NCBI GenBank assembly: GCA_000934665.2
Contig: KZ538673.1
Span: 1 to 54,825, forward strand
Direction of reading: 5' to 3'
Length of the DNA stretch: 54,825 bases
Source of the DNA: Catajapyx aquilonaris
Lineage: Eukaryota
A program made the position numbers and the translations under genes. Under the pieces are notes generated by a model that saw nothing but the letters and a program-made list of their open reading frames with translations, was not told the origin of the DNA and did not search any database. How positions within the stretch are numbered: position 1 is the first letter of the stretch; each line of letters opens with the position of its first letter. Shown here in pieces: positions 120 to 34,900 of the stretch.

Positions 120-202
120 AGTAGCAATACAGCAGCACATTCTTTATATACCGTTTTTATCCATTTTTATAGCCCTTGGAACTTTATTTTGAACATATAG
201 TC

Positions 203-4009: not shown

Positions 4010-4675
4010 CCGTCAAACGGGGGGAGATTGTGCCACTTTTGGAGGGTTTCCTTGCAAGCAAACCAGAGTAACTGATATATCGGAACGAATATTTCATACA
4101 ACATTGCTGCACATCTCACCTTTCAGATCATACATGAAAATAATTTTTATATAGGCCTACTAAGGGAGGGGAGATATCAATTCTTTTCCAGTTTTCCGTC
4201 CCACAATTTCATCCCGTCGTTTGGGTGAGATTGGGCCACCCTATTTAAATGCTTGAAACTGTGGTATAATCTCTCCTCGTCAAGTCCCCCTTTTTCATTC
4301 ATTGGGTCATAGCTCAAGAACATATGCAGATTTAAAAAACGTCAACTCGTATTTACTACCTTAATTATTGGGGTTATCGAAATAATAACTTACCTGGTAA
4401 CGAGAGGCAACCGGCCACTCACGCCACCAACACTATATACCACCAGGTGCAAAACTTGACGAAACTCAAAATTCCAACAATAATTTATTTTACGGGCCTT
4501 ATACCAACAAATCGCGAATTCTCTTTGTGAATGTCAACCTTGTACATTTATCAATGTAATGGAATATGCCTAATTTCGCCAGTTTACGCCTGCTGCCAGT
4601 AGGGTGCGGTGTTGTCCCAAAAAACGTGCTGGCACATTCTCTCCCCGCATGGCACAATCTCCCCCCGTTTGACGG
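4010..4675. mobile_element. pogo-like (Tc1/mariner superfamily) MITE, TA TSD
   Basis: Perfect 26-bp TIR CCGTCAAACGGGGGGAGATTGTGCCA (4010-4035 / 4650-4675) with TA on both sides and subterminal copies of the motif. Confidence 0.9.
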
Positions 4676-5859: not shown

Positions 5860-6130
5860 TCATGTCCTGCAGATTTCACCTTATTATTTTGAGGGGTCTG
5901 AGATTTTAAAAAATAAATAAAAAACGGCCGAATCCACTTTTGGTGCGGTGTAACACAAATACATGCAGCAATTATGTATTTTAATGTCATTGGGTATTAA
6001 TTGCACATTTGCATATGTAGCTGAAGTGCGGCAACATATGGACATAAAAATTTCCAGATTTCCCAGTGAAAGTTAAGTAATCCTCAGTTTTTGCTCATTT
6101 TACGACCAGTTTTTCCGTGTGGACTTGTCC
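5860..6130 (+). repeat. Dispersed repeat; inverted copy at ~31285-31610
   Basis: GTAACACAAATACATGCAGCAATTATGTATTTTAATGTCATTGGGTATTAATTGCACATTTGCATATGTA is a near-exact reverse complement of ~31476-31545. Confidence 0.8.
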
Positions 6131-9100: not shown

Positions 9101-11531
9101 CTGCGTCAGTTGGATTACACATGACACTAGCAATCCAGCATTAACACAATATACTTGTACAGTACATTGGATGGAGCCTGCTGGATGGAGTTTTTTTTTA
9201 TTTCCGTCTATAGTAACTGGACCTTTTGCCGCAGGGTGCTTACAAGTGAATGTATGCGTACTGTACACAAACTTTAAAAAAAAAGTATTCTCAACACTTC
9301 ATTTATATGGAGGCTCAACGCTACAGTAGACTACCTAGATTTCAAAACTTCCTGTCGATGGGTCACACTATATAGGGCAGTTATGTTCGACATAGCTTGT
9401 TCATTATCTTTGCGAAGCACACCTACCATACACTTCTGAATTTTTATCACGCCATGGAGGACTTTACTAGTTCTCGCAATGATATGAACGAATATAACAT
9501 ATGTACAGTACGTAGTGTATAGTACTATGTTCTAATTTGATACGGTGTAAGTTTAAAAGGGTATGGCAGGGTATTTTCTGTGGTGGATTTGGCTATATAC
9601 GCTGTTGCTGCGAATATAGCACGACCATCATAGGATAATGGAATGCATGTTAGGGGGCGGGATGGAGGTGGGGTTGAGGTACAGGTGATATGGTCCGTGG
9701 AGAACTTCCTTACCGCCATGCACTAGTTATGACTTTCTTCAAAAAATCTAAATATATTACTCTATATAAGTAAAATAGTTTTGTAATATTTTTTGTGCAC
9801 ACACCAAATTGGAAGTTTTGCGGATATTCCTGTAACATACAGTACCGTCATGGAACATAATTGGTGTCCTAATTTCGTGATTGACGCGATTACTTATCAT
9901 AACCATAAAACCGTAAAAAAATTGGGGCCAAGATATCATCTTAGGACAGTAAGCCAGTATCTTCCGACGTCGTCCAATTATCGAGTATGGCTCTATGTTG
10001 CATATGTCATTAGGAGTGCATTCAATTGACACTAATTTCATGCGACCATACGCCAAAAATACTTCATACATTCAGAAGGAACTAAAGACCACCTGCATGT
10101 CACAGGAAAATAATTAGAACTGCCAAGCAAATTATACTGGGGATTATACTTTTTGACGCTTATTACTCCTCATTAATGAGTCCTCTACAAATAGCGTTAA
10201 AATCCTGTAAAATTATGAAGTATTACTATTTTGTATTCATCTAGTCTTTAATATCCCAAATGAATTCCGATGACAGAAAAATAATATTTATATGTACGGA
10301 ATCGCAAAATTAAGAGTGTATGAGCTGATGATGTCCGAAACAGTATTCTGCAATACTTCGCGTGAGAGGGGAACGATATGCAATCATACCAAATTAATTA
10401 TATTTTAAGGCAGCATAAACCATTTCAGAATAATTAAGGAAAATGAAATTTCAGTACGGCAGTCCTAGAAGGACTTGCTGTATATGCCTATGAATTACAG
10501 TATTAATGCTGCTGAAATGAATCCATAGGATGAACTTACTGCAGGTCATTAACGATAACCAGAAGACATCAGGATGCAATAATGCCGATTGGACTCGGAG
10601 TAACACCTCCCCATTCATTCCCGGAAATGGGTCTGTGCACGCTTTTGACTACAGCGACCTTTTTTCCACACTAGGAGTCCATTGTTGGCAGGAATGCTAG
10701 CATGCCTACACGCAGACGGACATGATTTTCTTTCATGCAGCAATGAGCCATTGTGGGTCCTCCAGATCGGAAAATGTATGCCTCCTCTACAGCACACCCT
10801 CCGCGTCCAAACTTGGCGATGTTGCTGAAGATACCATATCGGACACCACCTGAACAATGCTCATCGTTCTGTCGCATAATCTGCGAGTCCCAACACATGC
10901 TAATTACGTCACGTGGACAACCTACTTGCGCAGTCACGGATACCACCGAGCGCCTTCCCTGGAAACTCTCTCAAACAATATTCTCTTGTCTTGCCGAGTT
11001 CACAAGAAATTTATGCCATTTCCGGTGCCCAACCCTCAAGCATGGGTGACGGTCGGCGTTACAAAAGCCCAACAATCGCTTTCGTGAGCTGCACGCCCCA
11101 ATAGAGAGGAGCCATTTCTGGCATCCAACAACCACCTATTCAATCAGGAACGGATGACATTATTACCGGTATTTATTCTGTTAGTCTACTTAAATGGTGG
11201 CATCACTTTCTGGGCGTCTGTTAACTGGAGCATGGAGCGAATTCAAGTCCAATGTACCATTTAAGTAGGGCAATGAGGCATCTTTGCAACAACTGCCTAG
11301 AGGGATCCAACAAAAGAAAACAAGTTTTTAAACTACAGTCGCCATGCAACCTTGCGAGTATCCAACATGCAAGGTCCTTGATTCCCAGCAACCTGTGCGT
11401 AGTCTTTGGCCCCCTTTTGCTAAAACACCGGAAGACGGGCCTAATAACACATTTTCTTTCGCCAGCATGCCGTTGCCCTACCACTGTACTACACAACTAA
11501 CAAGAACTGTACCAAGGAAATAATAATAATA

Positions 11532-11632
11532 CAGTTGAATCTGGATATAATACACAAGCCATATATGGAAGTATGCCGGGACCGACCTTTTGAGTCTGTT
11601 ATAGCCGAGGGTGTTATATCCAGATTCAACTG
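11532..11632. mobile_element. 101-bp Tigger/pogo-like MITE
   Basis: TA-CAGTTGAATCTGGATATAA ... TTATATCCAGATTCAACTG-TA. Confidence 0.85.
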
Positions 11633-12229
11633 TAACAATATACCCTAAATGATGAGGTCATTAAAACAACTAAGGTCATACAAAATATATTTTGACCTCA
11701 GTGACCGGGTTGGTGCTTAAGTTGTTAGACCTTGAAAGAACCCCCCAAAAAAACTATATGCACGACACCTGCCCACTTCACATATCCTACAAGAAAGGGT
11801 GTGTCATACTTGTTGGTGGGAATAGGGAGGGGTAGGTAACCCACATTTTGAGAAAGGATGAGGAACCGGACTGTAGTGGACCAACCAGCCAACTTAACTG
11901 CTCCAGATTGGATTCGAGTGTATAATGCTGTTAGCCGGATTTCCCTTCAGAAGATTACAGTGCCGTTTGGCTTTTTTCCGCCAGCATCATGCGTGACTAT
12001 CACTCACTTGTTACTTGCCAAATTGACTGCCCATTTTCATCCTTATGCTGCTGGACCCCAGATCAATTCACTGAACAAGTTGGCTTAAATTTGCAGAGGA
12101 CCACCAATGCGTTACAATATGAAATTCGTATAGTGTTTCTATACTTATCTGCAGAAACATATCACTAATAAAGTAACTTAAGTATAATAAAAATCCTGCT
12201 ACAATATACTTTTCTTGGGGTAGTATTTG

Positions 12230-12440
12230 GAATCCTGTCCCTGAACCATGTCCTAACAGGACGTCAAACTTTCTCATCATTTCCGCCAGGCTGGCAGTGA
12301 AGACCTTTTTTGACCTTTTCAAACAAGTCTAAGTGCAAGTAAGCTTGGTCAGAACGGCATGCCTGAGTGTCAGAACCCTTCAGTAGGAGTCAAATATTGG
12401 TAGTTAACTTCTTGCATGCCAGAGAGATCCCAGCAAAATC
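12230..12440 (-). pseudogene. Possible decayed mariner transposase C-terminal fragment
   Basis: Minus frame reads ..SDQAYLHLDLFEKVKKGLHCQPGGNDEKV*RPVRTWFRD, loosely like the mariner SD.HLF..LK..L....F..DEEV...V..WF segment; contains stops. Confidence 0.35.
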
Positions 12441-13949
12441 CAAGATGTTGGAGAAAAATATGTAGGCCTATTAACGCATAAGGATATGCTATCATCACAT
12501 GCAAACGTTTTTTTATTGTTTTTTTAGCAAATCTCGTGGTAACAATAAAGTGGGCCGTACGGTACGATTAGGTATTGTACGTGTAGCCGTATGAAAAAAG
12601 TTTGTCCTTTACTGAACAACTTAGCGGCTTGACGGTGACACAGCATTCGAAAGTACAAAATTACACGGCCTTTTGCAAATGGCTACTTCTAATCCTTTCT
12701 ATTCACCTTTTGTCGATGGTACACTACAACAAATTCTGCACAAACCTATTTCTTTGGCCAAAAACTAGCATTGTCCGGTTCCCAGTCGGGAATCCACCAA
12801 ACCTGCATTCAGTCACCACCATTTTACCGTATCATATGACCTGTCAAAGTACTTCTGACACTTGAATGCTTCCCCCTCTCCTTTCATTTACAAAACATAA
12901 CCATGCAGTTCTTTCTCGCGTAAAACTGGTAATCAAGGCCAGTAGTATAAAGGGTGGGGCTTTGTATGCGTGACGTGATGTAAGTCACGCTCCTTTTGCA
13001 GCTGAATTTTCGCGTAACAAATGAATCCAGAAATTCTCGCGCACCACGGGTCCCATATGACCCTCCCCAATTCTGGGACAACGCCCAGGGTGACAGGAGC
13101 AATATTAGTGAACATACCCTGAAGCCACTGTACCGTTGTGAGCACAAAAAATACAAATTGCTTGCTTAGGGTGTGGTAGGTCACGCGGTATGGCCATGCT
13201 TGATATACCCGATCAAAACGCATCACGCTTATGGAAAGTCACTCGGCTTTATCGGAAAGTCTTCCTTCCGAGTCCATTTCTGATTGTGTCAGATGTCCCT
13301 AGCTTACAGTATGATGGCATACCGGTGCGGTCATGCAGTGAAAAGAGCCGGGTGTGCAGCCGCAATGGACACGCTAAGCACAACGGCTTCTGATCAATTC
13401 AGGTGTCACAGTCTGCGATTGCGGAAGTGAAGGTGGGCAGGGATGAGGGGGTGCTTGAATGGCCTAGGAATAGCGGGTAACCTGCAAACCCAGCTGAGCA
13501 TACATACAACGAACACTTCGGAAACCAGCAGCATGATTCCCTCGGCGAAGGAACATGGCTTCGGGGAACATTACCGTATTCGACCGTTACTTCAAAGGAC
13601 AATGATGTTGCCCGTACGTGCTAACGACTCTGAAGGAGAAGAAGAAAGACATCCTGTGCCACCTCAACATATCCAAAATAATCATTCTCAAACACGTAGC
13701 CCCTTGCGGTACAAGCCCTCTATCTCCACTATTAAAAATCCGTATCGCATTATACAAGTAGAATGACACGTCGAACAATAAACCAGCGGAAAGGATGTAT
13801 TGTTATCCGGCAAAGATAATAATGAAAGCACTAACGGAAAAACACGAAATTCACAGGCATTAATAATACCAAGTTGAGAATGTCACTGAGTCGATGCTGC
13901 TAATATAAATAGTTCCTTATTCTATACATTATATACGTAGGCTACAGTA

Positions 13950-15560
13950 CAACTAGCAGCGGAGCCCGTTCTTTGCATGGGCTATTTCCATGGTAAAGTA
14001 AGCGCAGAGCGGAAAAATCATATATTTTATAGTCATTTAGACCCAAGAAAGTGCAGTTTTCTGACTTTTTCCTGAATAAGCGGCATGTAAACCATCAGTG
14101 TGCCAGGGAACCCGTTTTTCGCACGGGGGATTGAAAAATGAGAGAAATTAGTAAAACCTGCATATCACGCAGTATATACTGTAGTACCATATACGTATAG
14201 ATACATTATAGATACATTGGCGCGGGGCCTTTATGGTCGGGTCGCCGTAACTCTGACACAGTACCATATATGCATATATTATCTTTCCATGCAAGCATGC
14301 CTGATGGGTTCAGAGAATTGAAGAACACATTAATATTTTCCTTTAACAAAATCGTCTTTCTTACTGCACCATTTCCACTGACAAATAAACACTGCCTCCG
14401 TTGCACTGAGTGACATGGTGTAGTTTAATAATGATTATATTTACAGTGTCGTTACGTCTTGAGGGCGTTACGTTACACAAATATAATCCAGATTGATTTT
14501 TTCAGTGATATTTCAGAGTACACATTCAAAAGAAGTTATCCCAAAGTGTAATGTTGTGCCTACTAAATATGTTAAATTTTTTGTTCTCTTGCGAACCACT
14601 TTCATAACCCCATTGGCGATTATTTCATTGGCGCATTATTGAGCACACTGTCACCTGTTGGCCTTTTGTCAATGTGATTCTTTTCTCTCTGTACCACAAT
14701 AATTATTTCTGGCATTGTGGGATCTCCCTTCCTGGCAATATTCTCTTGCTGCCTTTACTTTGCACCAGTGCTTCCCAATCTTTTTCGTTGGCGACGCCAA
14801 AAAATCGCCTCGCAAAATTCGCGATCCTCCTGATGTGCACATTTCCCCAAATATGAAAAGACAGGTAAACAGTGAAATGAAAAGCATTTTAAACTATTGT
14901 AGAGTAGAAAGAGACAGCAGCAACTATAAATCGTATCCTTCAGCCAAAGAATGGAAGTAATATGTTACACAATGGATCATGAACTGAAGCCAAATGCAGT
15001 GATTCCATGGTAAATCGATTGCAATTTCTCACACATTTGAAACACTGTCACATAAAATGTGAGTAATGATTACAATACCTATGTGTGATTTTTTGAAAAA
15101 GTAATATGTGCATTTGTCAGAGACTGCATATACTTATGACATTTCCTATGTTTATACGATGGCAAAGATTCCGTGCACCGCCTTATGCACCCATGTGTTT
15201 GAAAATTTGCCGATTCAATTATCGTTCATGGGTAATAATGAATGGACTATGCATTTCTGAATAGGGGATGATCCAAGGAATCGATTGATATACCAACAGT
15301 CATAATTGGTTCATCAGTTCCACAGCGAGAAATTTAAGCTCAAAAATCGGCAAGATGCTGTGATTAATATTTTCTGGAATGTTTATTTCCAACCCTGCGC
15401 GCCCTATCACAATGAAGTTTTGAATGTGCATTTAGGCAAAGGTGATTGCCCTAGATCCTAAATATCACTGTGTTAAAATTATAACGTTATGAGTTACGGC
15501 TCTCGGGAATATAGAGTGATGTGGACATAAGGTGCGAATTTTTTTCAATGTCGTTTTTCG
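13950..15560. mobile_element. Possible non-autonomous Helitron/Helentron-like relic or composite
   Basis: Starts AACTAGCAGCGGAGCCCGTTCTTTGCATGGG (short hairpin), with a related motif at ~14105-14130, resembling ends of such elements. Boundaries uncertain. Confidence 0.3.
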
Positions 15561-15709
15561 AGTTAGCGCGAATATTTTGTAACCATATTATTCCTCTCTG
15601 CATTACCTTCCATATAACCTTACCTTCCATATATAACATCATTAACATGATGGTGGTGGGAGAACAGCCGGTATGAACAGTTAAAAATACTTTACATGGA
15701 CGTCATTGT

Positions 15710-15870
15710 TGAACTTTCCATTGTTATATCTCCGTGAGATTTTACTCCAGCGGCCTTATTTAGGATTTAGCAATAAGGTACGGATCCCTACCTATCTGAT
15801 TTTTTTTCTTCAATTACATGAGAAGGGGTCGATCCATTTAGGCATTTACACGATTGACATGGAATGACCC
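15710..15870. mobile_element. Second copy of the GGAATGACCC-ended MITE end
   Basis: Similar to 1-119. Confidence 0.65.
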
Positions 15871-17578
15871 AACTGCCAATGGTGCCAACTGGCTAAAAAT
15901 ACAGTGAGGTAGGAACGTTATGGTAACAGTCAGTGGCGGTAGGTTACACAACAATATGAAGCACCATTTGGGGCATTTCGACTCCAAAAAGTGCGGTTTT
16001 TGGACTTTTCTCGGACTCAGGGACTCGTAAGACATGGGTGTGGCCAGTTTCGGCGCTCTCGGTACTCTGAAAGTGTGTTTAAGTAGGCGTGACATACAAA
16101 CACAAAAATCAACAAACTCTGCTTTATACTATAAGAATAAGAGAGAATAAACTGAAGTTCCTGCGTCGATGTCAAAAGGTGAATTATGCCACCAAACTGC
16201 ACGATTAGCTTATCTTTTGTTAAGGCAGATCCCACCCACCACATTATCTGAATTCAAGCAATTCAGGATCACCCACTGAGATAACTAGGGGCGACATGAA
16301 GCTCGGAAAGACGCGAAGTTGGCATGTGTCAAGCATTTGACAGAATGTACAGTACAGTACATCGGAAATTATAAGCATGGTAGTGTACTACAACTCGTGT
16401 CTTGTCGAGCTTCTCGTCGCCTTCGGAGTGTGTGGAATTCGGATAAGGCAGTGTGTGGGAGCTAGATGTTTAACAGAAGATGAGCTATACAGCAATGATT
16501 GGGGGGGGGGGGGATGGGAGAGGGGTACTCACTCTCCAAATCCCAAATTTAGTGCCAAGTTAATGCATGTTTTTGACCTACTTTCGCGTCAATCCGCCGT
16601 TTCTCCATATATCTAATTAAGAAATGAGTTGAGGTGTCTATAGTACAGTAATTGTGATAGTGAAGTTCTCTTTTATGGTTTCATAACAAAGAACACTTTC
16701 ATCTATACTAAACGTGCCACTTCCAGAACTTCCTTGAGATTTGACCATAATTCTAACAGTTTATAATCTACATCCCGCATCTTTTTAAAACACCAATCAA
16801 GCTTAACATAATGTGATACATTAACACTCATAACCCAGCAATAAAACAGGTTATAGCAGTTGCTCTAGCAGCCAACCGTTGAATACTGAATTCATTGTCA
16901 GCTCCAATCAATGTCGCGAAGAAATTTTTGGCATTTATTCAATGAACACCAGTAAAAGGGACTTTTATCCCGCAAAGATTTCTTTTATTGTACCGTTTTT
17001 TTGTGTTACCCACCCGCGGCAAAAGTAACTGGTCGAACGAAAGTCGACGACCTCGCAGCTGGGCCCAAGTTATCATATTAATCTTAGTGCATTCATAGTC
17101 TTTTGGAACCTGAAAGGAGAATGATTGGTCAAGAATTTCAACTAGCCTGATTTGATAGCTTTGAGTTTGACATTGTCATTAACATATTACCACGACGGTC
17201 AATCGACACAGTTCTATGAGAACCAGTGAGAACACGCACGCTTCTAGTGATCATTCTAGTATCAACTTATTTCAATATTGCACCAAAATCCATGGATTTT
17301 TAAAAAAGGAAAGTAAGACTTTGTGCAAAGTCTGATGTCAAGAGGCAACTGGATGACCAACCATGCAATGAGGCAATACCTGCTCTCATATTTTAATGTT
17401 GCCGGATAATTAAATTCACAATTGAATTTCACAGTTACATATATGAACCGTAAAATCTGGAAAGGTCAATAGCGATTAAAATCACGATTTTCTTTCCTTC
17501 CGTGATGTTCAACAATATTATTAGAGCACACAGCATCTAAAGCCCGAACTACAGTAGTTATAAATTCTCACCTGAAAA

Positions 17579-17856
17579 CAGCGGTTCTCAACTGGTGGGG
17601 CGCCCCCCTGGATGGGGGGAGGGGGGGGAGGGGGGGGGATCCAAAAATTATGACTCGAAACAGGCGCAAAATTCGCACTGAGTGGGTAAGTACAGTACTT
17701 CTGTACATTCCTAAACTATTTACTGGACTACTTACTAGTAGTGAAGTTGTAGCAGTGCTATCGTAGTGCCTAGATGGGTGGGGGATGGGGGGAAAGGGGG
17801 GATATCTGAAATTACTTTTCAGGGGCCCCCGATGTGGCATAGGTTGAGAACCGCTG
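17579..17856. mobile_element. hAT (Charlie-like) MITE
   Basis: TIR CAGCGGTTCTCAAC / GTTGAGAACCGCTG; imperfect 8-bp flanks CCTGAAAA / CTGTAAAA. Confidence 0.8.
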
Positions 17857-17989
17857 CTGTAAAACATGTGGGCATAACTAAGCCAAGTTCAAACTCAATT
17901 TTAAAACATTTCCGTCCTACAAATCGCTAAAAAGTGCACCCCTTGACACTCATAACTTGTCTATTTTTCTTGCAGCTTGCAGCACAACA

Positions 17990-18508
17990 ATGAGGGTCTG
18001 CCTGGCAGTCTTGGTGACTCTCTGCACCGCAGTGACCAGTGAGAGGCTGCGGAGTTCCCAACCTTGCCCCCAACTCAACCGACAACTAGACCTTCCCTGC
18101 AAGTGCTCACTTGACTCTCACAATGGCACCCACATCAACTGTGATGGATCTGTCTTCGTGGGTGACTTCCCTTTACTACCATACCGACATCGCATCCATG
18201 CCTTCTCTCAACGTCATGTCGGCTACCAAAGTCTGCCAACTCAGGCTTTCACTGCCAGTGATATACCTCTGAAGAAGCTGGATTTTTCCCACAACTCTTT
18301 GCGGAGGTTAACTGAGCGGCTCTTCGACGGTATTGAGGATACTTTAGAAGAGGTTTACCTAGGATATAACCTGTTGGGGGCAGGACTCAACCCTATTTTT
18401 TCCACCAACGAATTCCATAACCTGCAGAGGCTCAGGGTGCTGGACTTGAAGAGGAACCAGATCAAGGGATTCGAGGATGGGATCTTTAAGGGATGCCATG
18501 CATTGCAG
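17990..18508 (+). CDS. LRR gene coding exon 1 (signal peptide, LRRNT, first LRRs)
   Basis: ATG at 17990; ends GCHALQ|GTTTGT. Confidence 0.9.
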
Positions 18509-21500
18509 GTTTGTTATATTTATCTATCTCAATTACTAAAACTGGAAAACACTACTGACATATGAATGAGTTCTGCTGTAATAATATATTGAAGCTAAAA
18601 ATCTGAAGAACGTGCTCAGTGCTGGGCTACGAAAAATGCCCGAAATTGCCGGTTGTATGAACATACAACCGGGTCTGACCGTGAATGTCAATCCTGCCTC
18701 TGTATGTCGCTCTGTAATTTGCAAGCTGATGACCGTGGAGCACGATTACGACGCGACGGATGACATTTATGCGACGAATCAATAGAAACACAGAAAAGTA
18801 TTTTATACGAAACGTTCCACTTGTAATATTAAAAAGTATTTTAAAGCCAAAAACTATACGGCGTCATTTCCGGCACAAAATCAATTTGGGAAATTGCGTC
18901 CGTTATCACTCAATGATATTTTTCAATATTTAGCAAAAAAATATACATGTTAATCATTTTTGGCTGATCATTATTCAGTTATATGTGACACTGTGGTTAC
19001 ATAACACATACATTTCTTGATTTGAAATGTTCATGACAGTTTCGCGTGTGTTTTAATGGGTCATGTCCTAATGGCTAATATCATACCTATTTGTCATATA
19101 TATAGAATCCACACTAATGTGACATGATGACACGATGCTGTCGTTAAGGAATCGAACCAAGCTAACAAGTAAGTTTGCGCGAGTTTCTTGCTGTTTCCAG
19201 CTCTGTGCATATAGCTACTCAGAGGGCTTCAAAAACCCAAGAAAGTCGCGCAAACTTAGCTTGGGCAGAATCGACCACCTTAAACGTCCTGTTCCATTTT
19301 GGCGTGGTGGTATTCACCATGACCAGATCGTAATGCTGTCACAAGCATGCAGCTATGGGTGTGAATATCTCTACATCAAGCTTGTTGCCGAAACGCATCA
19401 AGAAATGTAGAGTAAATGCCAAGAAAAATACAAAAGAATGATGTAGCCTACATATCATGGACGCTGTTAAGCCTCATATACCGTAGTATACTGTACTCAA
19501 GTTAGGAGAAATCTCCCAGAAAATATGGCTCGTGCTGCACTCATGTTTTACTGTACATTTAGGCTTTATACTGATTGTGATAATTAACTATATGCCGATG
19601 TATTTACAAGTTCTAAACACTCTAATTGCTTACATAGGAACTCTACCTGGAGGGAAACCACTTGGCGGCAGTGCCCACTGGCGCTCTCCGTGGTCCTCGT
19701 GCACTTCGCACTCTCCACCTCCAAGATAATGTCATGGGTAAGTCTCTAGACTCACTTGACTACTGTAAAATGTACTGTACGCTGAATTTTAATACATATT
19801 TTTCTAAGTGAAAACTCATTATAACGTACGAGGAAAAATATTGGACATGCACAGCATACTTAATACTGAGTGTGTTTCCGGCGGGCAAGTTCAGGATCGA
19901 TTGGTCGAGCTCTGATACGTGATGCATGTGGATACTTCTGCCAATTTCCAAATTCTGTTGCACAAGTAGTAATAGTTGTGCTATGAAGCGTTCTAATAAG
20001 CCAAATACCACACACTTGGCCTTATTTGGTAGCAAAAACGGCTCCCTCAGGTTTGCAGAACTGCAATCTGTGCTGCCTTCTTATTACGGTCCACCTACCC
20101 TTTGCATATAGCCCTTGTAACTCGGATTTTGCCGCAGTCATGCCTAACCTAGGTGGCAATAAAACGCCTTCTGCCTTGCTATGCTCAAAATTAGCGCACA
20201 AGAACAATGAAGGTTTTTCCAGCCTCATGGTACCAACCGATCACCGACAATGAGCAACCTAAAATACAACTAGTCATAAGATTTCTTCAGTGTATACTTT
20301 TAATGCCTTCATGCCACCATGAATTTGCTCAACACCAGATGGCAATAAATTGCATCATTGTATAATATTTTTTCTGTTTACAGAGAAGGTACACCGTAAT
20401 GCATTCAATGGTTTGTCAGCTTTGCGCTGGATTAACCTAAGCAGCAATTCCCTGGAAACGATTGAAGGCGATGCATTTTCTGGGCTTGGGAGTGTGAGAT
20501 CTGTCTACCTTTCTGGAAACAAGCTTCGTCGACTCAACAGTGATGCATTCCAAGGTCAGTTTAGCTTCAAGAGAGGATCTGGTTAGTTACAATGCTACAG
20601 CCTGCTTCCAGCAGCATTCCATTAATAAATGGACTATCTATGTCAGATTTTCCAAGTCATTTGGCAGAATACATTGAAGCCCCATGGATGTCTTTTACTT
20701 ATCAAATTCCACTAATTGATATTTTATAAGTAAATAATTTGACAATTTTTTTTTGATGTCATGTCAATTACCCTTTCTTACAGGCCTTTCATCTCTGCAT
20801 GAGTTAGACCTGTCAAATAACTTCCTAACTGAAGTTCCCATGGTTGCCTTGAAAGCGCTGCATACCCTTAAGCGCCTATCTGTGGCTTCCAACCTCCTAC
20901 AGGTAGGTAACTCGCTTGCTATTAACTTAGTAATAATATACTTCCCAAGCGGTTTCCTTGCATTACCTCCATAGCTCAGTGGCAGAGCACTCGTGATACT
21001 GTCAGGAATGTCCCAGGTTCGATTCCTGGTGGAGGCAACAACTATTATCCTATTCTGATCTTGCCATATAATTTCAGAATTTAGTGACCCTAATTGCCAA
21101 TTTACTGCTGCACATTCTTTCCAGACACTTGAAGGGTCCAATTTACAGCAGTTACCCCAGCTAGAGGCTTTGGACTTGAGCCGGAATAACATTGCAGATA
21201 TTATTCCAGGAACATTCCTAAGGATGTCAAACATGAAAGTGCTGGACGTCAGTATTAATTCACTGCGGAACGTGAGTGTTTGGATTTTCAATATAGGGCA
21301 TTGTCTATAATAATCTAACTCTAGTCAACCACATTCCCTTCTTAACAATTTCTGCTTTAGCTTTGCAATATCTTCTGGTACTCCCTAAATTTTATTTCTT
21401 CCATGTACCCATCTCCCACTCATCGCTTACCTGTCACGCAGGGCTTATGAACTGACCTTTGCCTTCAAAACATATTACATCTATGCTCGAGTATTCAGTG

Positions 21501-24500
21501 TTTGAACAAGTATATGATCCCTTTTTTCATTAATATCTATTACCAAACTCGCAGGTTTCCTAAGCAACAATACTTAGGATTGACCAATGAAATTGGTCAA
21601 TCTATCTTGTTGAAACACAATGCATTATGCTCACAACCCTGATAACAGGTTCTTCGACTGTAGCTTACTAAGCCCCACCCTATCAAACTTGATGAACTTC
21701 AATGTGAATCATCAGCCATGAATTGTAAATAATAATCTACATCAACATATCTTTCTTCTGCTTTATACAGGTGGAAGATGATGCCTTTGAAGGTCTGGAA
21801 AACCTTGAGAGCTTGTCTCTAAATGACAACAACATCCTGTTCGTCCCAACATCAGCTCTGAAACGCCTAATTACGCTGAAACATCTCTCCATGGATTACA
21901 ATCGCATAGCTGTTCTGTCAGACGCCATCCTAAATTCGATGCAGAATGTACTCCACCTTTCACTAGGGCACAACGTCATCCGTGAGATCCCAGACCACAC
22001 CTTCCGAAACTTCAGCCAGTTACAAAGGTTGCATCTGTATGGTAATCAACTGCAGTTCATTTCCCAGGCTACTTTCACTGGTTTGGAGAAAACACTGGAC
22101 ACACTGAATTTAGGATACAACAAACTGAATGAACTGCCCAAGATAAACCTGCGAGTACTGAGATCATTGGACTTGTCTAAGAATAACTTATCTCATATAT
22201 CATTTGAGATGCTCTCTGGCTATCCCAATTTGATATATCTCAACTTGGCTGAAAATGGCATTGAGAGTGTTTCAGTCAATTCCTTTGTTGGACTTCCAAA
22301 GCTGGAGGTGCTACGGCTAGACAGCAACAACATATTGGGAATCAAGCCAGGAACATTCCAACTGCCAGCAGTGAAGTCAATTCATCTGCAAGGTAATCAG
22401 CTACAAGAAATCGAACCCAAAACATTTCATAATCTACGAGTTGACTACCTGGACCTCAGTGACAACCTGATTGAGTCCATAAGACCTGAGGCTTTTACCA
22501 ATGTGCCATTCTTGCACACGCTGCTGCTCAATTACAATGTCCTCTTGACTATAAAGAGCGACTTTTTTAGTGGAAATGCAACTGGCCTATTGCACCTGGA
22601 CCTCAGCAATAATCACCTTACCTCTGTACACCCAACATCATTCACTGTTCACCCTGCATTGCTGACACTCAACATGAGTTACAATCACTTACGCACTGCT
22701 CCTCTTATTCGCTTTCTACCACACTTTCAATCATTGGATCTGTCCTACAATCTGATCCAAGAAATCGATGAATCAGAATTTTCTGGGATGCCGAAGTTAC
22801 ATTCTATAGACCTCAGCCATAATCAACTAGAATCCCTGGGGCTTCATGCATTCCAGAATTCCACACAACTCCAATATGTTGACCTGAGCTACAACAAGCT
22901 AGACACAATGCCAGAAACTTTGTTCAAAGGGGTGTCGCGCCTCAATTTAAATCTTGAGCACAACCAGTTGCAGCAACTTCCAGGAAAAATATTTGACCGT
23001 GCAAATCTCCAGCGACTTCAGAGCATTAACCTAGCTAACAATAACTTCCATGCAATCCCTACTGTTGCACTGCAGAGGCAATATTTCTTCTTAGAGAAGG
23101 TTAACCTGGCAGGCAACAAGATCCGAGATGTTCCATCAAATACCAACACCTTGGTAAATATCAAATATTTGGATTTATCATTCAATCCATTGTCTGAAAC
23201 ATCCATCATTAATATACTGAATGAACCAAAAACAGTATTAGAACTGAACTTAGCTGGGACAGGAATTAAAAAATTGCCAGCATTAGAAACACCCTTCTTG
23301 CGTGCATTGAACCTCACTTACAATGAAATCCGTGACTTGAACGAATCCTTGTTTGAAAGGCCAACATTGCTGGAAAGGTTGGACTTGTCCAACAATGCTA
23401 TCCCGAACTTGAGCTTTGGGGTAGCTCATATTTGGCAAAGGCTGAAGTACCTCAAGGAGATTGACCTGTCTCACAACCCAATTGCATACATTGTCCGTGG
23501 TGATTTTAATCACTTGGATTCGCTCAAGATTCTGAAGCTGAACAATCTAGTTGAATGTACCAAAGTGGAGAAAAATGCCTTCAGTAATTTGCGAAACTTG
23601 AAGCAATTTTCTTTTGTTGGGTACCCTCGGCTGGGATATCTAGACAGTAAGGGCATCTTGGAGAACTTCTTCACATTGGAAAAAATAGCCATTGAAGTAA
23701 AGGACCAGGTTGTTGGGGACCAGTTCCACCCAGCGTTCTATCCACGTCTGACTCATTTGGCTATCCATGGTCGTCGTGTACAGAGCTTGTCCACTGGTGC
23801 ATTTGCTGGACTGAACAGCCCCAAGATTCGGATATCACTCCACAACACATCTGTGTCCAATCTCCCAGCATCCATATTTTTCCCAGTACCCATGTCATCC
23901 AACATCACTCTGGACATTGCTGGAAGTAAATTTGCCAACCTTGGCCCACCTTTTATTGCTACACTAACAAACCGGCAACGCCACATCCACCTCCAAGGAC
24001 TTTCATCTAATCCAATAATGTGTGACTGCAACAGCTTACCACTGCTGCGGTGGTTATTTCATGCTGCCACCAACTTTGATGTTGAGGCTATCCAGTGCTC
24101 TGGCCCACCATCACTTTATGGTAGAAAGTTGATTGACATCCCTGCAAGCGAGCTAACTTGCAACTTCAACATAACAACAACAGCCGGGACAACAGAAGCA
24201 CCACTTACTACGCAGGCTGAACCTGAAATTATTTGGTCCACTTCTCCACAGTATGACGATGAGACAACCAAGAGGGAATCCAAAACTGCACTTGCAAGCC
24301 CAACTTTAAACAACATGGACACTCTCATCATTGCCATTGTTGGCGGTGTGGTTGCCTTCATTGCCTTGCTCATTATCATTATATGCATTGTACGGTTACG
24401 TGCAGCAAACACACAGTATCGTGGTGGTCCTTTGGCTGGACCTTTAGCACTCCGTGCTCAAGGTAAATGCACTTGCTTGAAACCACCACCACCATTGTAT

Positions 24501-24692
24501 GGTGCCATGCCATACCCATATCCCTACGGAGGCACTCTCCCACACAAGATGCTACCTCCACCTGGTGGATTTGCTGGAGTACCACATACACCACCTGGAT
24601 ATGGAACAGCATCCAGCCGACAGGGGAGTTACTACTTAAACCCACCCTACTATGTCACGTTCCCACCTGAAAGTGACACAGACCACAGGTAA
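17990..24692 (+). CDS. Chaoptin-like leucine-rich-repeat transmembrane protein (~1325 aa), 6 coding exons
   Basis: Exons 17990-18508, 19638-19737, 20384-20554, 20784-20902, 21125-21271, 21771-24692; all GT-AG, phases 0/1/1/0/0, total 3978 nt. Signal peptide MRVCLAVLVTLCTAVTS, Cys-rich LRRNT, roughly 35-40 LxxLxLxxN repeats, LRRCT (NPIMCDC), Thr-rich stalk, TM LIIAIVGGVVAFIALLIIIICIV, Pro/Tyr-rich tail. An acceptor at 17975 upstream of the ATG implies a 5' UTR exon. Confidence 0.93.
19638..19737 (+). CDS. LRR gene coding exon 2
   Basis: TACATAG|ELYLEGNHLAAVPTGALRGPRALRTLHLQDNVM|GTAAGT. Confidence 0.9.
20384..20554 (+). CDS. LRR gene coding exon 3
   Basis: TTTACAG|..KVHRNAFNGLSALRWINLSSN..AFQ|GTCAGT. 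Confidence 0.9.
20784..20902 (+). CDS. LRR gene coding exon 4
   Basis: CTTACAG|..LSSLHELDLSNNFL..SNLLQ|GTAGGT. Confidence 0.9.
20965..21037 (+). pseudogene. tRNA-like element / tRNA pseudogene in LRR intron 4
   Basis: Acceptor stem CCTCCA/TGGAGG, D arm GCTC-AGTGGCA-GAGC (A box), T arm CCAGG-TTCGATT-CCTGG (B box). The anticodon arm is non-canonical, so no isotype is assigned. Confidence 0.75.
21125..21271 (+). CDS. LRR gene coding exon 5
   Basis: CTTTCCAG|TLEGSNLQQLPQLEALDLSRNNI..SINSLRN|GTGAGT. Confidence 0.9.
21771..24692 (+). CDS. LRR gene terminal exon (LRRs, LRRCT, TM, cytoplasmic tail)
   Basis: 973-codon ORF starting right after TTATACAG; the first GTG is Val, not a start codon. Confidence 0.95.
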   Translation: MEDDAFEGLENLESLSLNDNNILFVPTSALKRLITLKHLSMDYNRIAVLSDAILNSMQNVLHLSLGHNVIREIPDHTFRNFSQLQRLHLYGNQLQFISQATFTGLEKTLDTLNLGYNKLNELPKINLRVLRSLDLSKNNLSHISFEMLSGYPNLIYLNLAENGIESVSVNSFVGLPKLEVLRLDSNNILGIKPGTFQLPAVKSIHLQGNQLQEIEPKTFHNLRVDYLDLSDNLIESIRPEAFTNVPFLHTLLLNYNVLLTIKSDFFSGNATGLLHLDLSNNHLTSVHPTSFTVHPALLTLNMSYNHLRTAPLIRFLPHFQSLDLSYNLIQEIDESEFSGMPKLHSIDLSHNQLESLGLHAFQNSTQLQYVDLSYNKLDTMPETLFKGVSRLNLNLEHNQLQQLPGKIFDRANLQRLQSINLANNNFHAIPTVALQRQYFFLEKVNLAGNKIRDVPSNTNTLVNIKYLDLSFNPLSETSIINILNEPKTVLELNLAGTGIKKLPALETPFLRALNLTYNEIRDLNESLFERPTLLERLDLSNNAIPNLSFGVAHIWQRLKYLKEIDLSHNPIAYIVRGDFNHLDSLKILKLNNLVECTKVEKNAFSNLRNLKQFSFVGYPRLGYLDSKGILENFFTLEKIAIEVKDQVVGDQFHPAFYPRLTHLAIHGRRVQSLSTGAFAGLNSPKIRISLHNTSVSNLPASIFFPVPMSSNITLDIAGSKFANLGPPFIATLTNRQRHIHLQGLSSNPIMCDCNSLPLLRWLFHAATNFDVEAIQCSGPPSLYGRKLIDIPASELTCNFNITTTAGTTEAPLTTQAEPEIIWSTSPQYDDETTKRESKTALASPTLNNMDTLIIAIVGGVVAFIALLIIIICIVRLRAANTQYRGGPLAGPLALRAQGKCTCLKPPPPLYGAMPYPYPYGGTLPHKMLPPPGGFAGVPHTPPGYGTASSRQGSYYLNPPYYVTFPPESDTDHR

Positions 24693-24982
24693 CTTTTGTG
24701 GTGCCCATGTGATGTGCATAGTTTCTCTGATATTCCGAGTGATGTGATGGCTCAAGTGTGTGATTTTTTGGATGGTGACAAACACTCAGGTTCTTAGTTG
24801 CCATTCAATTGATTTTTCAACCAAAATGCCACCACCAGAGTGAACTAACCGGTGCCTGCATCTTGATGCAATCAGTTGTGGTGGCAATGGCACCAGTAAG
24901 GGGACACACTCTGTTACAGTGTCAAGCAATCATGTATGTGCAATAGTGTTACCCAAGTCAATGACTTGTCAAAGCAGACACT

Positions 24983-25095
24983 AATAAATTATTGTCAAGG
25001 CACTTGCACCCAAAATCCCATTGGGGCATTTTCAGCCACACCTTATATTGGGTAGTCAAACCTCTGCATGATATGTAGAGTCATTATGTAATAAA
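24983..25095 (+). terminator. Candidate polyadenylation signals of the LRR gene
   Basis: AATAAA at 24983-24988 and 25090-25095, about 300-400 nt after the stop. Confidence 0.4.
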
Positions 25096-25554
25096 GCTAT
25101 AATCCACATCAAAGCATGTACTGTACACCCTTCAGTTTTGTAATGCCAAACAGGATCAGGAAGCATGGCTACATGTGACAGTAGTAACATTCGTAGAATT
25201 TACTCATTGTATCTCAAAGTGTGGTCTGTGGTCAACTAGTAGGATATGAACTGATCCAATCAAGGATCCAACATTCTAATTCTTTAATAGCGCTTTATTA
25301 GTGATATATGACAATTTGCTAATGGAGATAAGTAGCCTAAATAGACTGCAGGATCTGCAGGATAAAGGAGCCATGCTGTAAAATAAGTTCAAGCAACACT
25401 GATTTAGTCTCAAAATTAGCTCTCACGCACCTACAGGAACATTGGCTGATGAATGGAAATAGTGCGCACTTTTTGAATACCCTATAACTGCATGGAAACA
25501 TGCCTTTATTTTTATTTCAGCAATTAACATTGTAAAATGAAGAACAACACAAGT

Positions 25555-25795
25555 ATAATAATGGATACCCCGTGATAGGCCTCCTCGGGCCTCTTAGGTG
25601 ATCATCTTTTCGTCAACCATCTTTAATCATTGCCTGCGTGTGATGGATTTTTATTGCGGGAGGAAACGGGAGAACCCTGAGAAAACCCACGTGAACACAG
25701 AGAGAACCCATCGAAACTCTATCCACATAAGTATCCTCTGTCCGACCCGGGGATCGAACTGGGGACCTTAGAGGTGGAAGGCTGCGGCACCACAG
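25555..25795 (-). mobile_element. 5'-truncated tRNA-derived SINE with V/Meta-type core
   Basis: Minus strand: B box GTTCGATCC, core GTGGGTTTTCTCAGGGTTCTCCCGTTTCCTCCC, ATT-rich tail. A decayed relative lies at ~35258-35450. Confidence 0.75.
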
Positions 25796-25917
25796 TAGGA
25801 GTAAATTACAGAAGGTAACCATGTCATCATGTTTCCAGCAGTTGAAAGTAGGTGAGAAACATAAAAATGGCCTAGACTAGTGGGGCTCTGTAACTTAGCA
25901 ATAATTGCAGTACTCAC

Positions 25918-25998
25918 CCATGTATTGTCACGAATGTATTGTTCCACTAATTCACTAACAACAGCCTCTTCATTGCACTCAGAGTCACAATTAACACC
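25918..25998 (-). CDS. TEP1: TEP1 exon 11 (last visible)
   Basis: TTGCAG|GVNCDSECNEEAVVSELVEQYIRDNTW|GTGAGT; phase 0/0; weaker similarity than the TROVE exons. Confidence 0.65.
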
Positions 25999-31900: not shown

Positions 31901-34900
31901 TGAATGACCCAGTTGTTAATAGGTTTTGTGCAAGGTTAGAACCACAGAAATTTACAGAACAATGTAGGTACATACAATATGGATCTGCCATTTATCTCAG
32001 AGTTGTGTGTCTACAAGTGGTATTAAAAATTCAATGGGGCTGGCTCACCGAAAGTTCGGCCGCCAGGCGGCGTTAGTGGGCAAAAGGTTATTGTTTTTCT
32101 CTCTATACGGGCCGCATGCACGGGTGGAGAGTGCAGGGTTGCCTCTAAAAATTCATTCCGGCCAAACTGGGAGTCACCCTGGTGTGACAGTGCCCCCATC
32201 GTCGAGAGGAGATTCCGAGGATTATGTCAATGTCCATATAAGCCGCAAATACTGTGCGGTTATTTTACTTGAGAATTTAATATCGAATATGAGGGGAAGA
32301 AGAAAAGAATAAAATTCCCCCGTAAATTAACCCGTTGTTATTTATAACCGATATGGCCTTCGATGGGAACGTCGGAGTCTCCCCTCGACGACTTGGGCAC
32401 TGTCACACCCGTGCGACCCCCAGTTTGGCAGGAATGAATTTTCAGAGACAACCCTGCACCCTGGACCCGTTGGGTTACAGCCCGCCAGATTCTCACCCTC
32501 CGAGACGCTATATGTCCCACTTTTTACCCTCATATTCGCTATTAAATTCTCCAGCAAAATAAACCGTGGTTATTTATGGCCGATATGGACCTCGACGGCA
32601 TCGTCGGAATCTCCTCTCGACAACGGGGGCACTGTCAAACCAGGACGACCCCTAGATTGGCCGCAATGAATTTTCAGAGGTAACCCTGCGAGTGGACCCC
32701 ACTCCTCCTTGAGCCCGCTATGCCTCGACGACGATACCTGACGATACTATGCTATGCCTCCCTGCCCACTAGCGCCGCATTGCGGCCGGTCGTCTGATCC
32801 AGCCCCATTCAAATTCAAATGTTACAGCTGCATTCACCCACCTTGTTTGGTGCATCTGCCATGTTACTCACCTTTCTAAAATTTCTTACACCCCTCGTAG
32901 ACAAGTCACTGCGAGATACATGGTAGATCTATGCAGGGTGGTCGGTAAATGGCGCACAAGCTTCAGGTAGTGAGATTCCTTGTGAAATACCAGTATATGA
33001 AAGTGAAGGTCCTATTGCTCTATGATGCCTGGTTAGGGCTCATGAGGCCTCCAAAGTTTGGCCCAAATCATGACGTTACATCCACCCGTGAAATTCAAAC
33101 ACTACTGCATTGCTACCGTACACGGTGTGTTACTAGGCGTTGCCATGTTGACATCCCGCACATGTTCACCAAACAGTGGAACCGTATACACTCGCGGGGA
33201 CGTTGCCAGGAGTTGCCACGTCATCGTCCCCGTAGTTTATACGACGATATGGAAACACCTGGCAATGTCCCTGCGAGTGTATACGGTTCCATTGTTTGGT
33301 GAACATGTGCGGGATGTCAACATGGCAACGCCTAGCAACACACCTCATACGGTAGCAATACAGTAGTGTTTGAATTTCGCGGGTGGATGTGACGTCCTGA
33401 TTTGGCCCAAACTTTGGAGGCCTTGTGAGCCCTAACCAATCATCGTAGAGCAATAGGACCTTCACTTCCGTATACTGGTTTTTCACAAGGAATCTCGCTA
33501 CCTGAAGCTTGTGCGCCATTTACCAACCACCCTGTATAATGCCTGCATTCACTGACACATTTTAATTGTTTTGTCTCTTCTATACAGAAAACTTAATAAC
33601 AACTCTCTTCTGCTCTTTGATGCGGCAAATTCACACTCTACTTATGGTTAAAAAGCCTGAACTTACAAATTCCACGAGAGTCGGAAACTGCCCCTTTCAA
33701 CCAAAAAATTATTGCAGTTCTGGTTATAACTGCTCAACCCTCATAATTATGCTGTTAGAAAGCTTGACTAACTCCATGTAGCATCATTATGTTCAAGTTG
33801 CTTCTCTACTGATAGTATGAAATTTATTATATTTTAATTTTAATTTAATTTAATTACCCTTTTATTTTAATTTTATTTTATTATCTAATTATTATTATCT
33901 TTTATTAACAAAGCTGAAATTTACTATATAAAATAAGAACACCTTGTGATTTCAGTGAGGCAGGAGGGCAGGAAGGTATCCCTCACTCTGATGTGAGTCA
34001 GGTGTGTCTTAACACCACTATATTCCACCACATATCCATACAACCCGACTTAATCATTGCACATTTGAATAAGGACAGGACACTTAAGGATGAAAAGCTA
34101 CATATTATTTTTATTAGGCCTACCTCAGCTTTTGTTTTCAGCTCATTAATTATATCTGCAAAGGAGGTGGACTGGGGATGAACTTCTACGCTGCAGCTGC
34201 CATACAGCATGAAAGTACACTTCTCACATGCCATGTAACACATGACACTCATTAACAATGCTGTGTCAATAAACTGTAAATAGAGAAAAAATATGTAGAT
34301 AATGTAAAACAACATAAGCAAAACCCTGACTGTGAGTAACAATGTACAGCATAAGGCATCTTATGAAATACAGGGTTATCAAAAGAGAATGCGCATATTT
34401 AAAAACCCTATAACTCAGAAACGTGTAGATACAGGAAGTACTCTTTTACGCCATTAATTGGTTCCAGCAAAATGCGGCATCAAGTGAATCGGCGTAAAAC
34501 AAGACAAAATTATAATGTAAGTAAATGAAATAGGTTCCAAAATTTCCAAAAATTTTCCATAGGCAGTGGTAATATTGCTGTGTTTAATGCTGAATATTTG
34601 AAACATTGATTAATGGGAGGTTCCAGGTTGAGGGCCATCGGATTCTGAGGGGTCCTTTCCTTATTTTGGCCTGTTCAATCATATCTGGAGTTACCATTGC
34701 GGTCCTAACTCGTAGGTGCTGGAGACGACAGGTCTTTACACCACACACGTTGTTCTTGATGATGCACATAAAAAGTCGCCTCATCCACGAAACAAACCTG
34801 CCTTAGGAAAGTTTCATTTGCTCAGCCTCTCAGTGTGCAAAGTCTTGAAAGAGAAGTTTCCCCATTGCCCATTGCCTAGCGCCCCCCCCCCNNAGCGCCC

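What the first reader, a model, noticed from the sequence alone, without database searches (positions are those of the whole stretch)
17990..25998. TEP1 ends on an open splice donor facing the LRR gene: nested antisense gene or truncated Ro60-like TEP1
Seen: the last visible TEP1 exon ends TGG|GTGAGT at 25918, 1.2 kb from the stop of the convergent LRR gene, and I found no TEP1-like exon in 1-25917. Established: canonical TEP1 continues with the rest of vWA, then DUF4062, NACHT and WD40 repeats. Inference: either one >25.9 kb intron holds the whole LRR receptor gene in antisense, or this locus encodes only TROVE plus partial vWA, an architecture like Ro60.
Basis: partly seen in the sequence, partly recalled or inferred. 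Interest (0 to 1): 0.7.

Follow-up and report, generated by a model that had tools for sequence, protein, structure and literature searches.

The report
LRR gene nested inside TEP1 intron
The vault/telomerase-associated gene TEP1 is not truncated here: it is a complete gene split over three assembly contigs, and one large intron holds a whole cell-surface leucine-rich-repeat gene on the opposite strand, which is a common layout in animal genomes.

Summary
The window is a whole contig (C1228). TEP1 continues on C8003 (rest of vWA, DUF4062) and C2315 (NACHT, WD40, stop). At least 40 coding exons tile a homologue-only profile in order, with no stops or frameshifts. The donor at 25917 is phase 0 and meets a phase-0 acceptor at C8003:271 with no residues missing. 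DNA also ties the contigs: window 1-119 and C8003 1-137 are the left and right arms of one inverted-repeat transposon, with a matching 4-bp target duplication, as in 5 of 5 intact copies. The intron is about 27-32 kb and holds the complete 6-exon, 1325-aa chaoptin/artichoke-like transmembrane LRR gene. The Ro60-like truncation is refuted; Ro60 has its own locus. Splicing across the intron is inferred, not seen in RNA. No TEP1 was found beside 30 related LRR loci, most with short flanks. Side lead: the NADase residues are intact but the NACHT Walker A lysine is methionine.

The parts
49750..50145 (-). Probable first coding exon of TEP1 (ATG at 50145; NPLL-type repeats like the N-termini of homologues); 3' boundary and link to the next exon not resolved
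   Evidence: resemblance to the N-termini of P0125/P0126 printed (judged by eye, inference)
46433..46623 (-). TEP1 exon, start of TROVE (5' boundary uncertain; no good acceptor found; an in-frame ATG lies at 46627)
46215..46376 (-). TEP1 exon, TROVE
   Evidence: PF05731 E 4.9e-12
45045..45173 (-). TEP1 exon, TROVE
44785..44987 (-). TEP1 exon, TROVE (the spliced alignment chose an acceptor at 44945 instead)
44062..44219 (-). TEP1 exon, TROVE
   Evidence: PF05731 E 1.8e-13
42987..43131 (-). TEP1 exon, TROVE
   Evidence: PF05731 E 2.1e-11
38813..38959 (-). TEP1 exon, variable stretch late in TROVE
   Evidence: spliced alignment; open frame in model
36266..36446 (-). TEP1 exon, end of TROVE / start of vWA
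   Evidence: HMM E 4.9e-14
34124..34273 (-). TEP1 exon, vWA, phase-0 donor
   Evidence: HMM E 1.1e-4
25918..25998 (-). TEP1 exon, 81 nt, vWA; fills profile columns 670-695; phase-0 donor at 25917 continues to C8003:271
1..25917 (-). Window part of the large TEP1 intron (at least 26,187 nt with C8003 1-270; about 26.7-31.9 kb with the unassembled transposon middle)
17990..18508 (+). Nested LRR gene, coding exon 1 (ATG, hydrophobic N-terminus; an acceptor just upstream implies a non-coding exon further 5')
19638..19737 (+). Nested LRR gene, coding exon 2
20384..20554 (+). Nested LRR gene, coding exon 3
20784..20902 (+). Nested LRR gene, coding exon 4
21125..21271 (+). Nested LRR gene, coding exon 5 (an alternative donor after 21277 also keeps the frame)
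21771..24692 (+). Nested LRR gene, last exon: LRRs, LRRCT, one TM helix (aa about 1208-1226), proline/tyrosine-rich tail, stop
1..119 (-). Left-type arm of a GGG...CCC terminal-inverted-repeat element that broke the assembly; its right-type arm is C8003:1-137
120..123 (-). 4-bp target-site duplication (TACT in TEP1 sense), repeated at C8003:138-141

Best explanation
One full-length TEP1 gene (TROVE-vWA-DUF4062/TIR-like NADase-NACHT-WD40; at least 40 coding exons, about 2300 aa plus an unresolved N-terminus) runs across C1228 (-), C8003 (+) and C2315 (-). Its intron between ...DNTW (window 25918) and VDNL... (C8003:271) is about 27-32 kb and holds the whole coding sequence of a pan-arthropod chaoptin/artichoke-like single-pass LRR gene on the opposite strand. 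Shown on DNA: exon order, reading frame, splice phases, the two transposon arms and the target duplication. Inferred: the long intron is spliced out as one; the LRR gene has its own promoter and poly(A) site inside it; the genes are functionally unrelated, and the LRR gene or a TEP1 segment came here by a lineage-specific rearrangement. Opposite orientation is tolerated because the LRR gene's splice and poly(A) signals are not read on the TEP1 pre-mRNA; any interaction would be transcriptional interference, eased by different expression patterns (general model from the nested-gene literature, not tested here).
For: The window is the whole of contig C1228. DUF4062 hits C8003. Tachypleus TEP1 (P0126) maps in order to C1228, C8003 and C2315. 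A TROVE-to-DUF4062 query (P0130) had 10 of 10 candidates scored, and all 9 matches fall on these three contigs, so there is one TEP1. The junction aligns with 10 homologues with no residue missing, W|VDNL against KKTW LDNI in Tachypleus. My spliced alignment with a homologue-only profile picks the 81-nt exon, then C8003:271, and nothing else in 1-25917; 740 aa, no stops. The C2315 part has 25 exons, 1534 aa, no stop or frameshift, and ends at a stop codon; the C8003-to-C2315 join is also in phase. Window 1-88 is identical to C8003 10-97. The window arm is left-type and the C8003 arm right-type. 5 of 5 intact left/right pairs have a perfect 4-bp duplication, and only 1 of 22 left arms typed (the window's) has the flank that matches C8003. 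The LRR model is complete: 1325 aa, aligned end to end at 43% to Limulus chaoptin-like P0073.
Against: The contig join is inferred; no single assembled sequence spans it. The arm searches scored only 40 of 116 and 40 of 113 candidates, so other arms were not checked, and one contig-internal right arm (C775) also has a TACT flank. The intron is over three times longer than any other in the gene (window introns 56-8125 nt; C2315 introns 52-2046 nt). The 81-nt exon has weak homology, and without C8003 my alignment chose noise exons instead of it; if it were skipped (phase 0 to phase 0) the LRR gene would still be nested. The LRR gene's non-coding 5' exon was not located, so the whole transcript might be interleaved rather than nested. 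No overlap links C8003 to C2315 on DNA.
Confidence: 0.93

Rival explanations
1. The locus encodes only TROVE plus half a vWA domain (Ro60-like), and the C8003/C2315 exons belong to a second TEP1 gene whose TROVE part is missing from the assembly.
For: No contiguous sequence spans the join. The TROVE family search is not exhaustive: it missed the Ro60 locus on C1087 (compare). Reading through the donor gives an open 49-aa extension to a stop near 25770.
Against: It needs the exact complement of exons, in matching phase, on a contig that starts with the partner arm and matching target duplication. Only one TEP1-type TROVE was found. The cut would fall mid-vWA, whereas Ro60 has a whole vWA; the Ro60 vWA model hits C1087 only.
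Confidence: 0.02
2. Both occur: full-length TEP1 is the main product, and intronic polyadenylation after exon 25918 gives a minor short TROVE-plus-half-vWA isoform, perhaps promoted where the convergent LRR gene is transcribed.
For: Open read-through of 49 aa; four AATAAA on the TEP1 strand in the 1225-nt gap, against about 1 per kb elsewhere in the intron.
Against: The same-sized stretch after the previous donor (34123) has five AATAAA, so the count is not specific. The first AATAAA lies in a dispersed repeat (25559-25746). The donor is strong. Half a vWA domain is unlikely to fold (inference).
Confidence: 0.06
3. The window is a misassembly: the LRR block was wrongly joined to the TEP1 5' block, and in the real genome exon 25918 lies near C8003 without the LRR gene between them.
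For: Fragmented, repeat-rich assembly with N runs near the contig start; the intron is far longer than the gene's others.
Against: A misassembly would have to insert the LRR block between two pieces that both belong there: the TEP1 exon at 25918 on one side and the C8003-matching arm at 1-119 on the other. Assemblers usually break or collapse at repeats rather than insert a unique gene (general knowledge).
Confidence: 0.03

Closest known systems
Drosophila 2mit nested in timeless2/timeout (PMC3786989; passages read)
   Same: A multi-exon transmembrane LRR gene on the opposite strand in a large intron of an unrelated host gene; the paper reports no functional link between the pair.
   Different: Different host and a different LRR gene; the 2mit/tim2 nesting is shared by Drosophilidae and Apis, while no TEP1 was found beside the related LRR loci checked here.
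Vertebrate LRRTM1-3 nested in alpha-catenin genes (PMC3933685; abstract read)
   Same: LRR transmembrane genes on the opposite strand of a large host intron; the abstract notes that most of the other nested genes it examined also carry LRR domains.
   Different: An ancient, conserved vertebrate arrangement with short LRR arrays; here a 1325-aa chaoptin-like protein in TEP1, apparently lineage-specific.
Full-length invertebrate TEP1 (Tachypleus XP_076330930.1, Mizuhopecten XP_021378535.1, Branchiostoma C3Z4J5; names) and human TEP1 TIR-like domain (PDB 11gz)
   Same: Same domain order and co-linear homology; the residues needed for NADase activity are conserved.
   Different: Walker A reads GKRGSGMT (Lys to Met) where 21 of 21 homologues checked have GK[ST]; the N-terminal exon structure is unresolved.
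Ro60 / TROVE2
   Same: Shares the TROVE + vWA module with the TEP1 N-terminus.
   Different: Ro60 ends after a complete vWA; this gene continues. A separate Ro60-type vWA is on C1087.

Membership tests
TEP1 | N-terminal TROVE domain | tested here: met
   PF05731 over cut-off on window exons
TEP1 | vWA region after TROVE, complete | tested here: met
   Continuous alignment to 10 homologues across the C1228/C8003 junction; no vWA Pfam hit on single exons
TEP1 | DUF4062 (TeTIR/NIR) directly before the NACHT domain | tested here: met
   PF13271 on C8003; NACHT-region exons follow on C2315
TEP1 | NADase residues (human F902, R914, R942, C959, R976, E1008) | tested here: met
   C959, R976 and E1008 equivalents align to PDB 11gz, E 2.4e-19; FISS, GERD and RWG motifs present; numbering matched by residue spacing against the list. 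Activity not tested.
TEP1 | NACHT domain with canonical Walker A GxxxxGK[ST] | tested here: not met
   The domain is present by homology but the lysine is Met. One genomic sequence only; an assembly error is not excluded. This lowers 'working NTPase', not orthology.
TEP1 | C-terminal WD40 propellers to the end of the protein | tested here: met
   Exons reach profile column 2512 of 2516, then a stop
TEP1 | Binds vault particle / vault RNA | not testable with these tools
   An MVP gene exists in the genome (PF11978, E 4.1e-51, C7); binding untested
Ro60 | Protein ends after TROVE + vWA | tested here: not met
   Downstream exons continue in frame
Ro60 | Matches the Ro60-type vWA model PF25045 | tested here: not met
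   All 3 matches (2 of 2 candidates scored) are on C1087, none in the window or C8003
Nested antisense gene | Whole coding sequence inside one intron of the host | tested here: met
   LRR CDS 17990-24692 lies between host exons 25918 and C8003:271; contig join inferred
Nested antisense gene | Opposite strand to the host | tested here: met
   LRR on +, TEP1 on -
Nested antisense gene | Start site and poly(A) site also inside the intron | tested here: inconclusive
   Two plus-strand AATAAA at 24983 and 25090; 5' non-coding exon not located
Nested antisense gene | Host transcript spliced across the nested gene | not testable with these tools
   No reads were available to lay
Arthropod chaoptin/artichoke-like LRR transmembrane proteins (about 1340 aa) | Long LRR array, LRRCT, one TM helix, conserved cytoplasmic tail | tested here: met
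   The names are database labels; orthology to a named Drosophila gene (rdo is a recalled guess) was not tested.
Sola-type / non-autonomous DNA transposon (label recalled, from no call) | Terminal inverted repeats starting GGG/GAG and 4-bp target duplication | tested here: met
   5 of 5 typed left/right pairs; no transposase was sought, so the superfamily is not established

The most novel reading that the evidence does not exclude
The nested, convergent LRR gene acts as a switch: where it is transcribed, polymerase collision or intronic polyadenylation cuts TEP1 short after exon 25918, giving an RNA-binding TROVE product without the NADase, while other cells make a full-length TEP1 whose intact NADase is no longer under normal NACHT nucleotide control (Walker A Lys to Met).
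Probability: 0.04. Interest if true: 0.6.

Novelty: new member of a known kind. Interest (0 to 1): 0.17.

Why it matters
Modestly. Nested genes are about 6-10% of Drosophila genes (PMC3786989 passage; PMC3814207 abstract) and 71% of them lie on the opposite strand (PMC3814207 passage); LRR transmembrane genes are known nesters. This TEP1/LRR pair did not turn up in one literature search or in the scan's notes, but it is one more case. The practical value is in annotation: three contigs can be ordered, and TEP1 should be modelled as one intact gene. The more useful by-product is an arthropod with MVP, Ro60 and a full TEP1 whose TIR-like NADase site is conserved while its P-loop lysine is not. 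If real, that is a natural variant for testing how the NACHT domain controls the recently described TEP1 NADase.

Tried and rejected
RNA evidence: the look-up of sequencing runs for 17800-27000 listed no RNA holder; this is no evidence either way, and no reads were laid. A homologue search with a 52-aa TROVE exon found nothing because the tool stops at 2000 aa; full-length TEP1s came instead. Synteny: of 39 loci returned for the LRR alignment, 30 were scanned (9 weak, mostly short matches left out); none had a TEP1 hit by HMM (E<=1) or tblastn (E<=0.01) in 8467 segments. Only 7 of the 30 had 4.8 kb or more downstream; in L076 and L078 the convergent neighbour is another gene (glutamate-receptor-like and DEG/ENaC-like by eye, not searched). 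Those hosts may lack TEP1, so this argues only weakly against conservation. Other genes in the intron: 24 long open frames from the window were scanned against Pfam; the only hit was a Helitron fragment outside this intron. Rfam found only two tRNA-like sequences. No overlap between the C8003 end and C2315. CpG profile and a TATA+Inr scan did not locate the LRR promoter. AATAAA density gives no specific support for a 3' end after 25918. The PF25047 search was swamped by other WD40 genes and was uninformative. Earlier-finding searches by words and by relatives returned nothing. Supplements of the three bioRxiv preprints were not seen; they may list arthropod TEP1s or Walker A variants.

Full report
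Verdict. TEP1 is full length and the LRR gene is nested in one of its introns (confidence about 0.93). The Ro60-like truncation is refuted. The layout is real but ordinary.

Observation. The minus-strand exon 25998-25918 is there, 81 nt, ending TGG|GTGAGT, phase 0 at both ends. The LRR stop ends at 24692, 1225 nt away. No TEP1-like exon lies in 1-25917: a profile from 20 full-length homologues only, run on 4244 six-frame segments, gave two plus-strand noise hits there (E 8.5 and 10) and none on the minus strand, and tblastn with 12 homologues agreed. The 81-nt exon has little homology signal of its own. It ranks 1 of 583 candidate phase-0/0 exons on combined score (10.6 against 1.6), first on splice signals and fourth on homology.

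Where TEP1 goes on. The window is all of contig C1228 in a 20,583-contig assembly, so an open donor is expected. DUF4062 hits C8003. Named full-length TEP1s map in order to C1228 (TROVE, start of vWA), C8003 (rest of vWA, DUF4062) and C2315 (NACHT, WD40). C8003 has five exons: 271-413, 3218-3280, 3341-3478, 3546-3722 and 5613-5855. The first begins cag|GTG GAC, phase 0. In an alignment with 10 homologues the junction DNTW|VDNL sits on Tachypleus KKTW LDNI with nothing missing. A spliced alignment I wrote, using the homologue-only profile on window + gap + C8003, chose the 81-nt exon, then C8003:271, and nothing in between; 740 aa, no stops. On the window alone it fell into noise after 34124 and did not pick the 81-nt exon, which shows how weak that exon's homology is. 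On C2315 it found 25 exons, 1534 aa, no stop or frameshift, ending at profile column 2512 of 2516 just before a stop. The C8003-to-C2315 join is in phase but has no DNA overlap. A TROVE-to-DUF4062 query had all 10 candidates scored, and its 9 matches lie only on these three contigs, so there is one TEP1. Ro60 has its own locus on C1087 and MVP is on C7.

Are C1228 and C8003 adjacent? Window 1-88 is identical to C8003 10-97. Both ends belong to a dispersed element with GGG...CCC terminal inverted repeats. Intact copies have distinguishable left and right arms; the window end is left-type and the C8003 end right-type. 5 of 5 typed left/right pairs have perfect 4-bp target duplications, each different (AGAT, ATAT, CCCT, AGCT, AAAT), and the two contig ends read TACT|arm ... 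arm|TACT. Only 1 of 22 left arms typed has the flank that fits C8003; 2 of 12 right arms have TACT, the other being inside contig C775. Two other pairs had one arm I could not type; one matched and one did not. The searches scored only 40 of 116 and 40 of 113 candidates, so the census is partial. Intact copies are 767-5998 nt, which puts the intron at about 26.7-31.9 kb (at least 26,187 nt).

The nested gene. Six coding exons from 17990 to 24692 give 1325 aa, aligned end to end at 43% to Limulus chaoptin-like P0073, with one TM helix near aa 1208-1226. Relatives of about 1340 aa occur across crustaceans, insects and chelicerates, labelled chaoptin or artichoke; these are database labels, and the Drosophila orthologue was not determined. 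An acceptor just before the ATG implies a non-coding exon upstream, which I did not locate. No other gene was detected in the intron.

How it most likely works. TEP1 is transcribed through the whole region and the long intron is removed in one step (inferred). The LRR gene is transcribed on the other strand from its own promoter and ends at one of two AATAAA at 24983 or 25090 (inferred). Opposite orientation keeps its signals off the TEP1 pre-mRNA. PMC3814207 (passages read) reports 71.27% of Drosophila nested genes on the opposite strand and attributes the bias to selection against missplicing. I see no evidence of a functional link; for 2mit in timeless2 none was found either (PMC3786989, passages read).

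Rivals. True truncation with a hidden second TEP1 (0.02) needs the complementary exons, phase, partner arm and target duplication to match by chance. A minor intronic-poly(A) isoform (0.06) is open: read-through gives 49 more residues and four AATAAA follow, but five follow the previous donor too. Misassembly of the window (0.03) would need a unique gene inserted between two pieces that both belong there. No RNA was available to test any of these.

Conservation. Of 39 metagenome loci for the LRR gene, 30 were scanned and none had TEP1 sequence nearby. Only 7 had 4.8 kb or more downstream, and their hosts may lack TEP1, so this is weak evidence for a lineage-specific arrangement.

What is known. 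Nested genes are about 6% (PMC3786989 passage) to nearly 10% (PMC3814207 abstract) of Drosophila genes. LRR transmembrane genes nested antisense are established: 2mit in timeless2 and LRRTMs in alpha-catenins (PMC3933685, abstract read). One search for TEP1 with nesting and LRR terms returned no paper on this pair; most hits were the unrelated mosquito thioester protein (listing only). PMC3762200 (passages read) found no arthropod MVP in 2013, but PMC11219742 (listing only) reports MVP in the salmon louse and Tachypleus has an annotated TEP1, so vault genes in an arthropod are not new. The scan's own notes held nothing on this pair.

By-product. Three 2026 preprints show that DUF4062 is a TIR-like NADase active in human TEP1 (10.64898/2026.05.01.722283 and 10.64898/2026.09.04.749371, passages read; 10.64898/2026.09.21.753143, abstract and sections 5 and 9 read; supplements not seen). 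The equivalents of C959, R976 and E1008 align to PDB 11gz, and the FISS, GERD and RWG motifs are present. In contrast, Walker A reads GKRGSGMT where 21 of 21 homologues have GK[ST]. This is one base in one assembly and needs read support.

Scores. Interest 0.17; new member of a known kind. Most novel reading not excluded: the LRR gene switches TEP1 between a short RNA-binding form and a full-length NADase (probability 0.04, interest 0.6 if true).

Noticed in passing
G000:C2315:32549-32370 (-), in L038: TEP1 NACHT Walker A reads GKRGSGMT (Lys to Met) against GK[ST] in 21 of 21 homologues, while the NADase residues and a Walker B-like motif look intact. Real degeneration or assembly error.
   Followed up: partly
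G000:C7:183990-184346 (L072) and G000:C1087:45919-47707 (L073-L075): The genome has a major vault protein gene (E 4.1e-51) and a separate Ro60-type gene, so the vault gene set seems present in this arthropod.
   Followed up: partly
window 50145-46433 (-): The TEP1 5' end is unresolved: a likely first exon at 50145 with NPLL-type repeats, no good acceptor before the 46433 exon, and an in-frame ATG at 46627 that could start a shorter form.
   Followed up: partly
window 3240-3800 (+): A TCAGT initiator-like motif at about 3240, followed by a CA/CG-repeat leader and a GTGAGT donor near 3796, could be the LRR gene's non-coding first exon; speculative, such motifs are frequent.
   Followed up: no
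window 1-119, 15739-15875; L044, L052, L068 and others: A family of GGG...CCC inverted-repeat elements with 4-bp target duplications, 0.77-6 kb; a subfamily sits nested inside a larger palindromic element of related termini.
   Followed up: partly
window 37699-38630, 32930-33538, 41022-41379, 43524-43781, 44281-44457, 32120-32470: Many long palindromic MITE-like insertions in TEP1 introns, up to 930 nt at 91% arm identity.
   Followed up: no
window 20964-21039 (+) and 51966-52037 (+): Two weak tRNA-like sequences (43 and 40 bits); the second leads into a repeat shared with 48913-49042, so probably tRNA-derived SINEs.
   Followed up: partly
window 45362-45604 (-): Helitron helicase-like fragment (PF14214, E 1.5e-9) in a TEP1 intron.
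   Followed up: no
window 17990-24692 and TEP1 exons: CpG is depleted in TEP1 exons (o/e 0.29) and the large LRR exon (0.37) but not in 1-17900 (0.6-1.0), consistent with gene-body methylation.
   Followed up: no
L076:14546-17555 (-) and L078:20418-22632 (-): In two related loci the LRR gene has a different convergent neighbour, by eye a metabotropic glutamate-type receptor and a DEG/ENaC channel.
   Followed up: no
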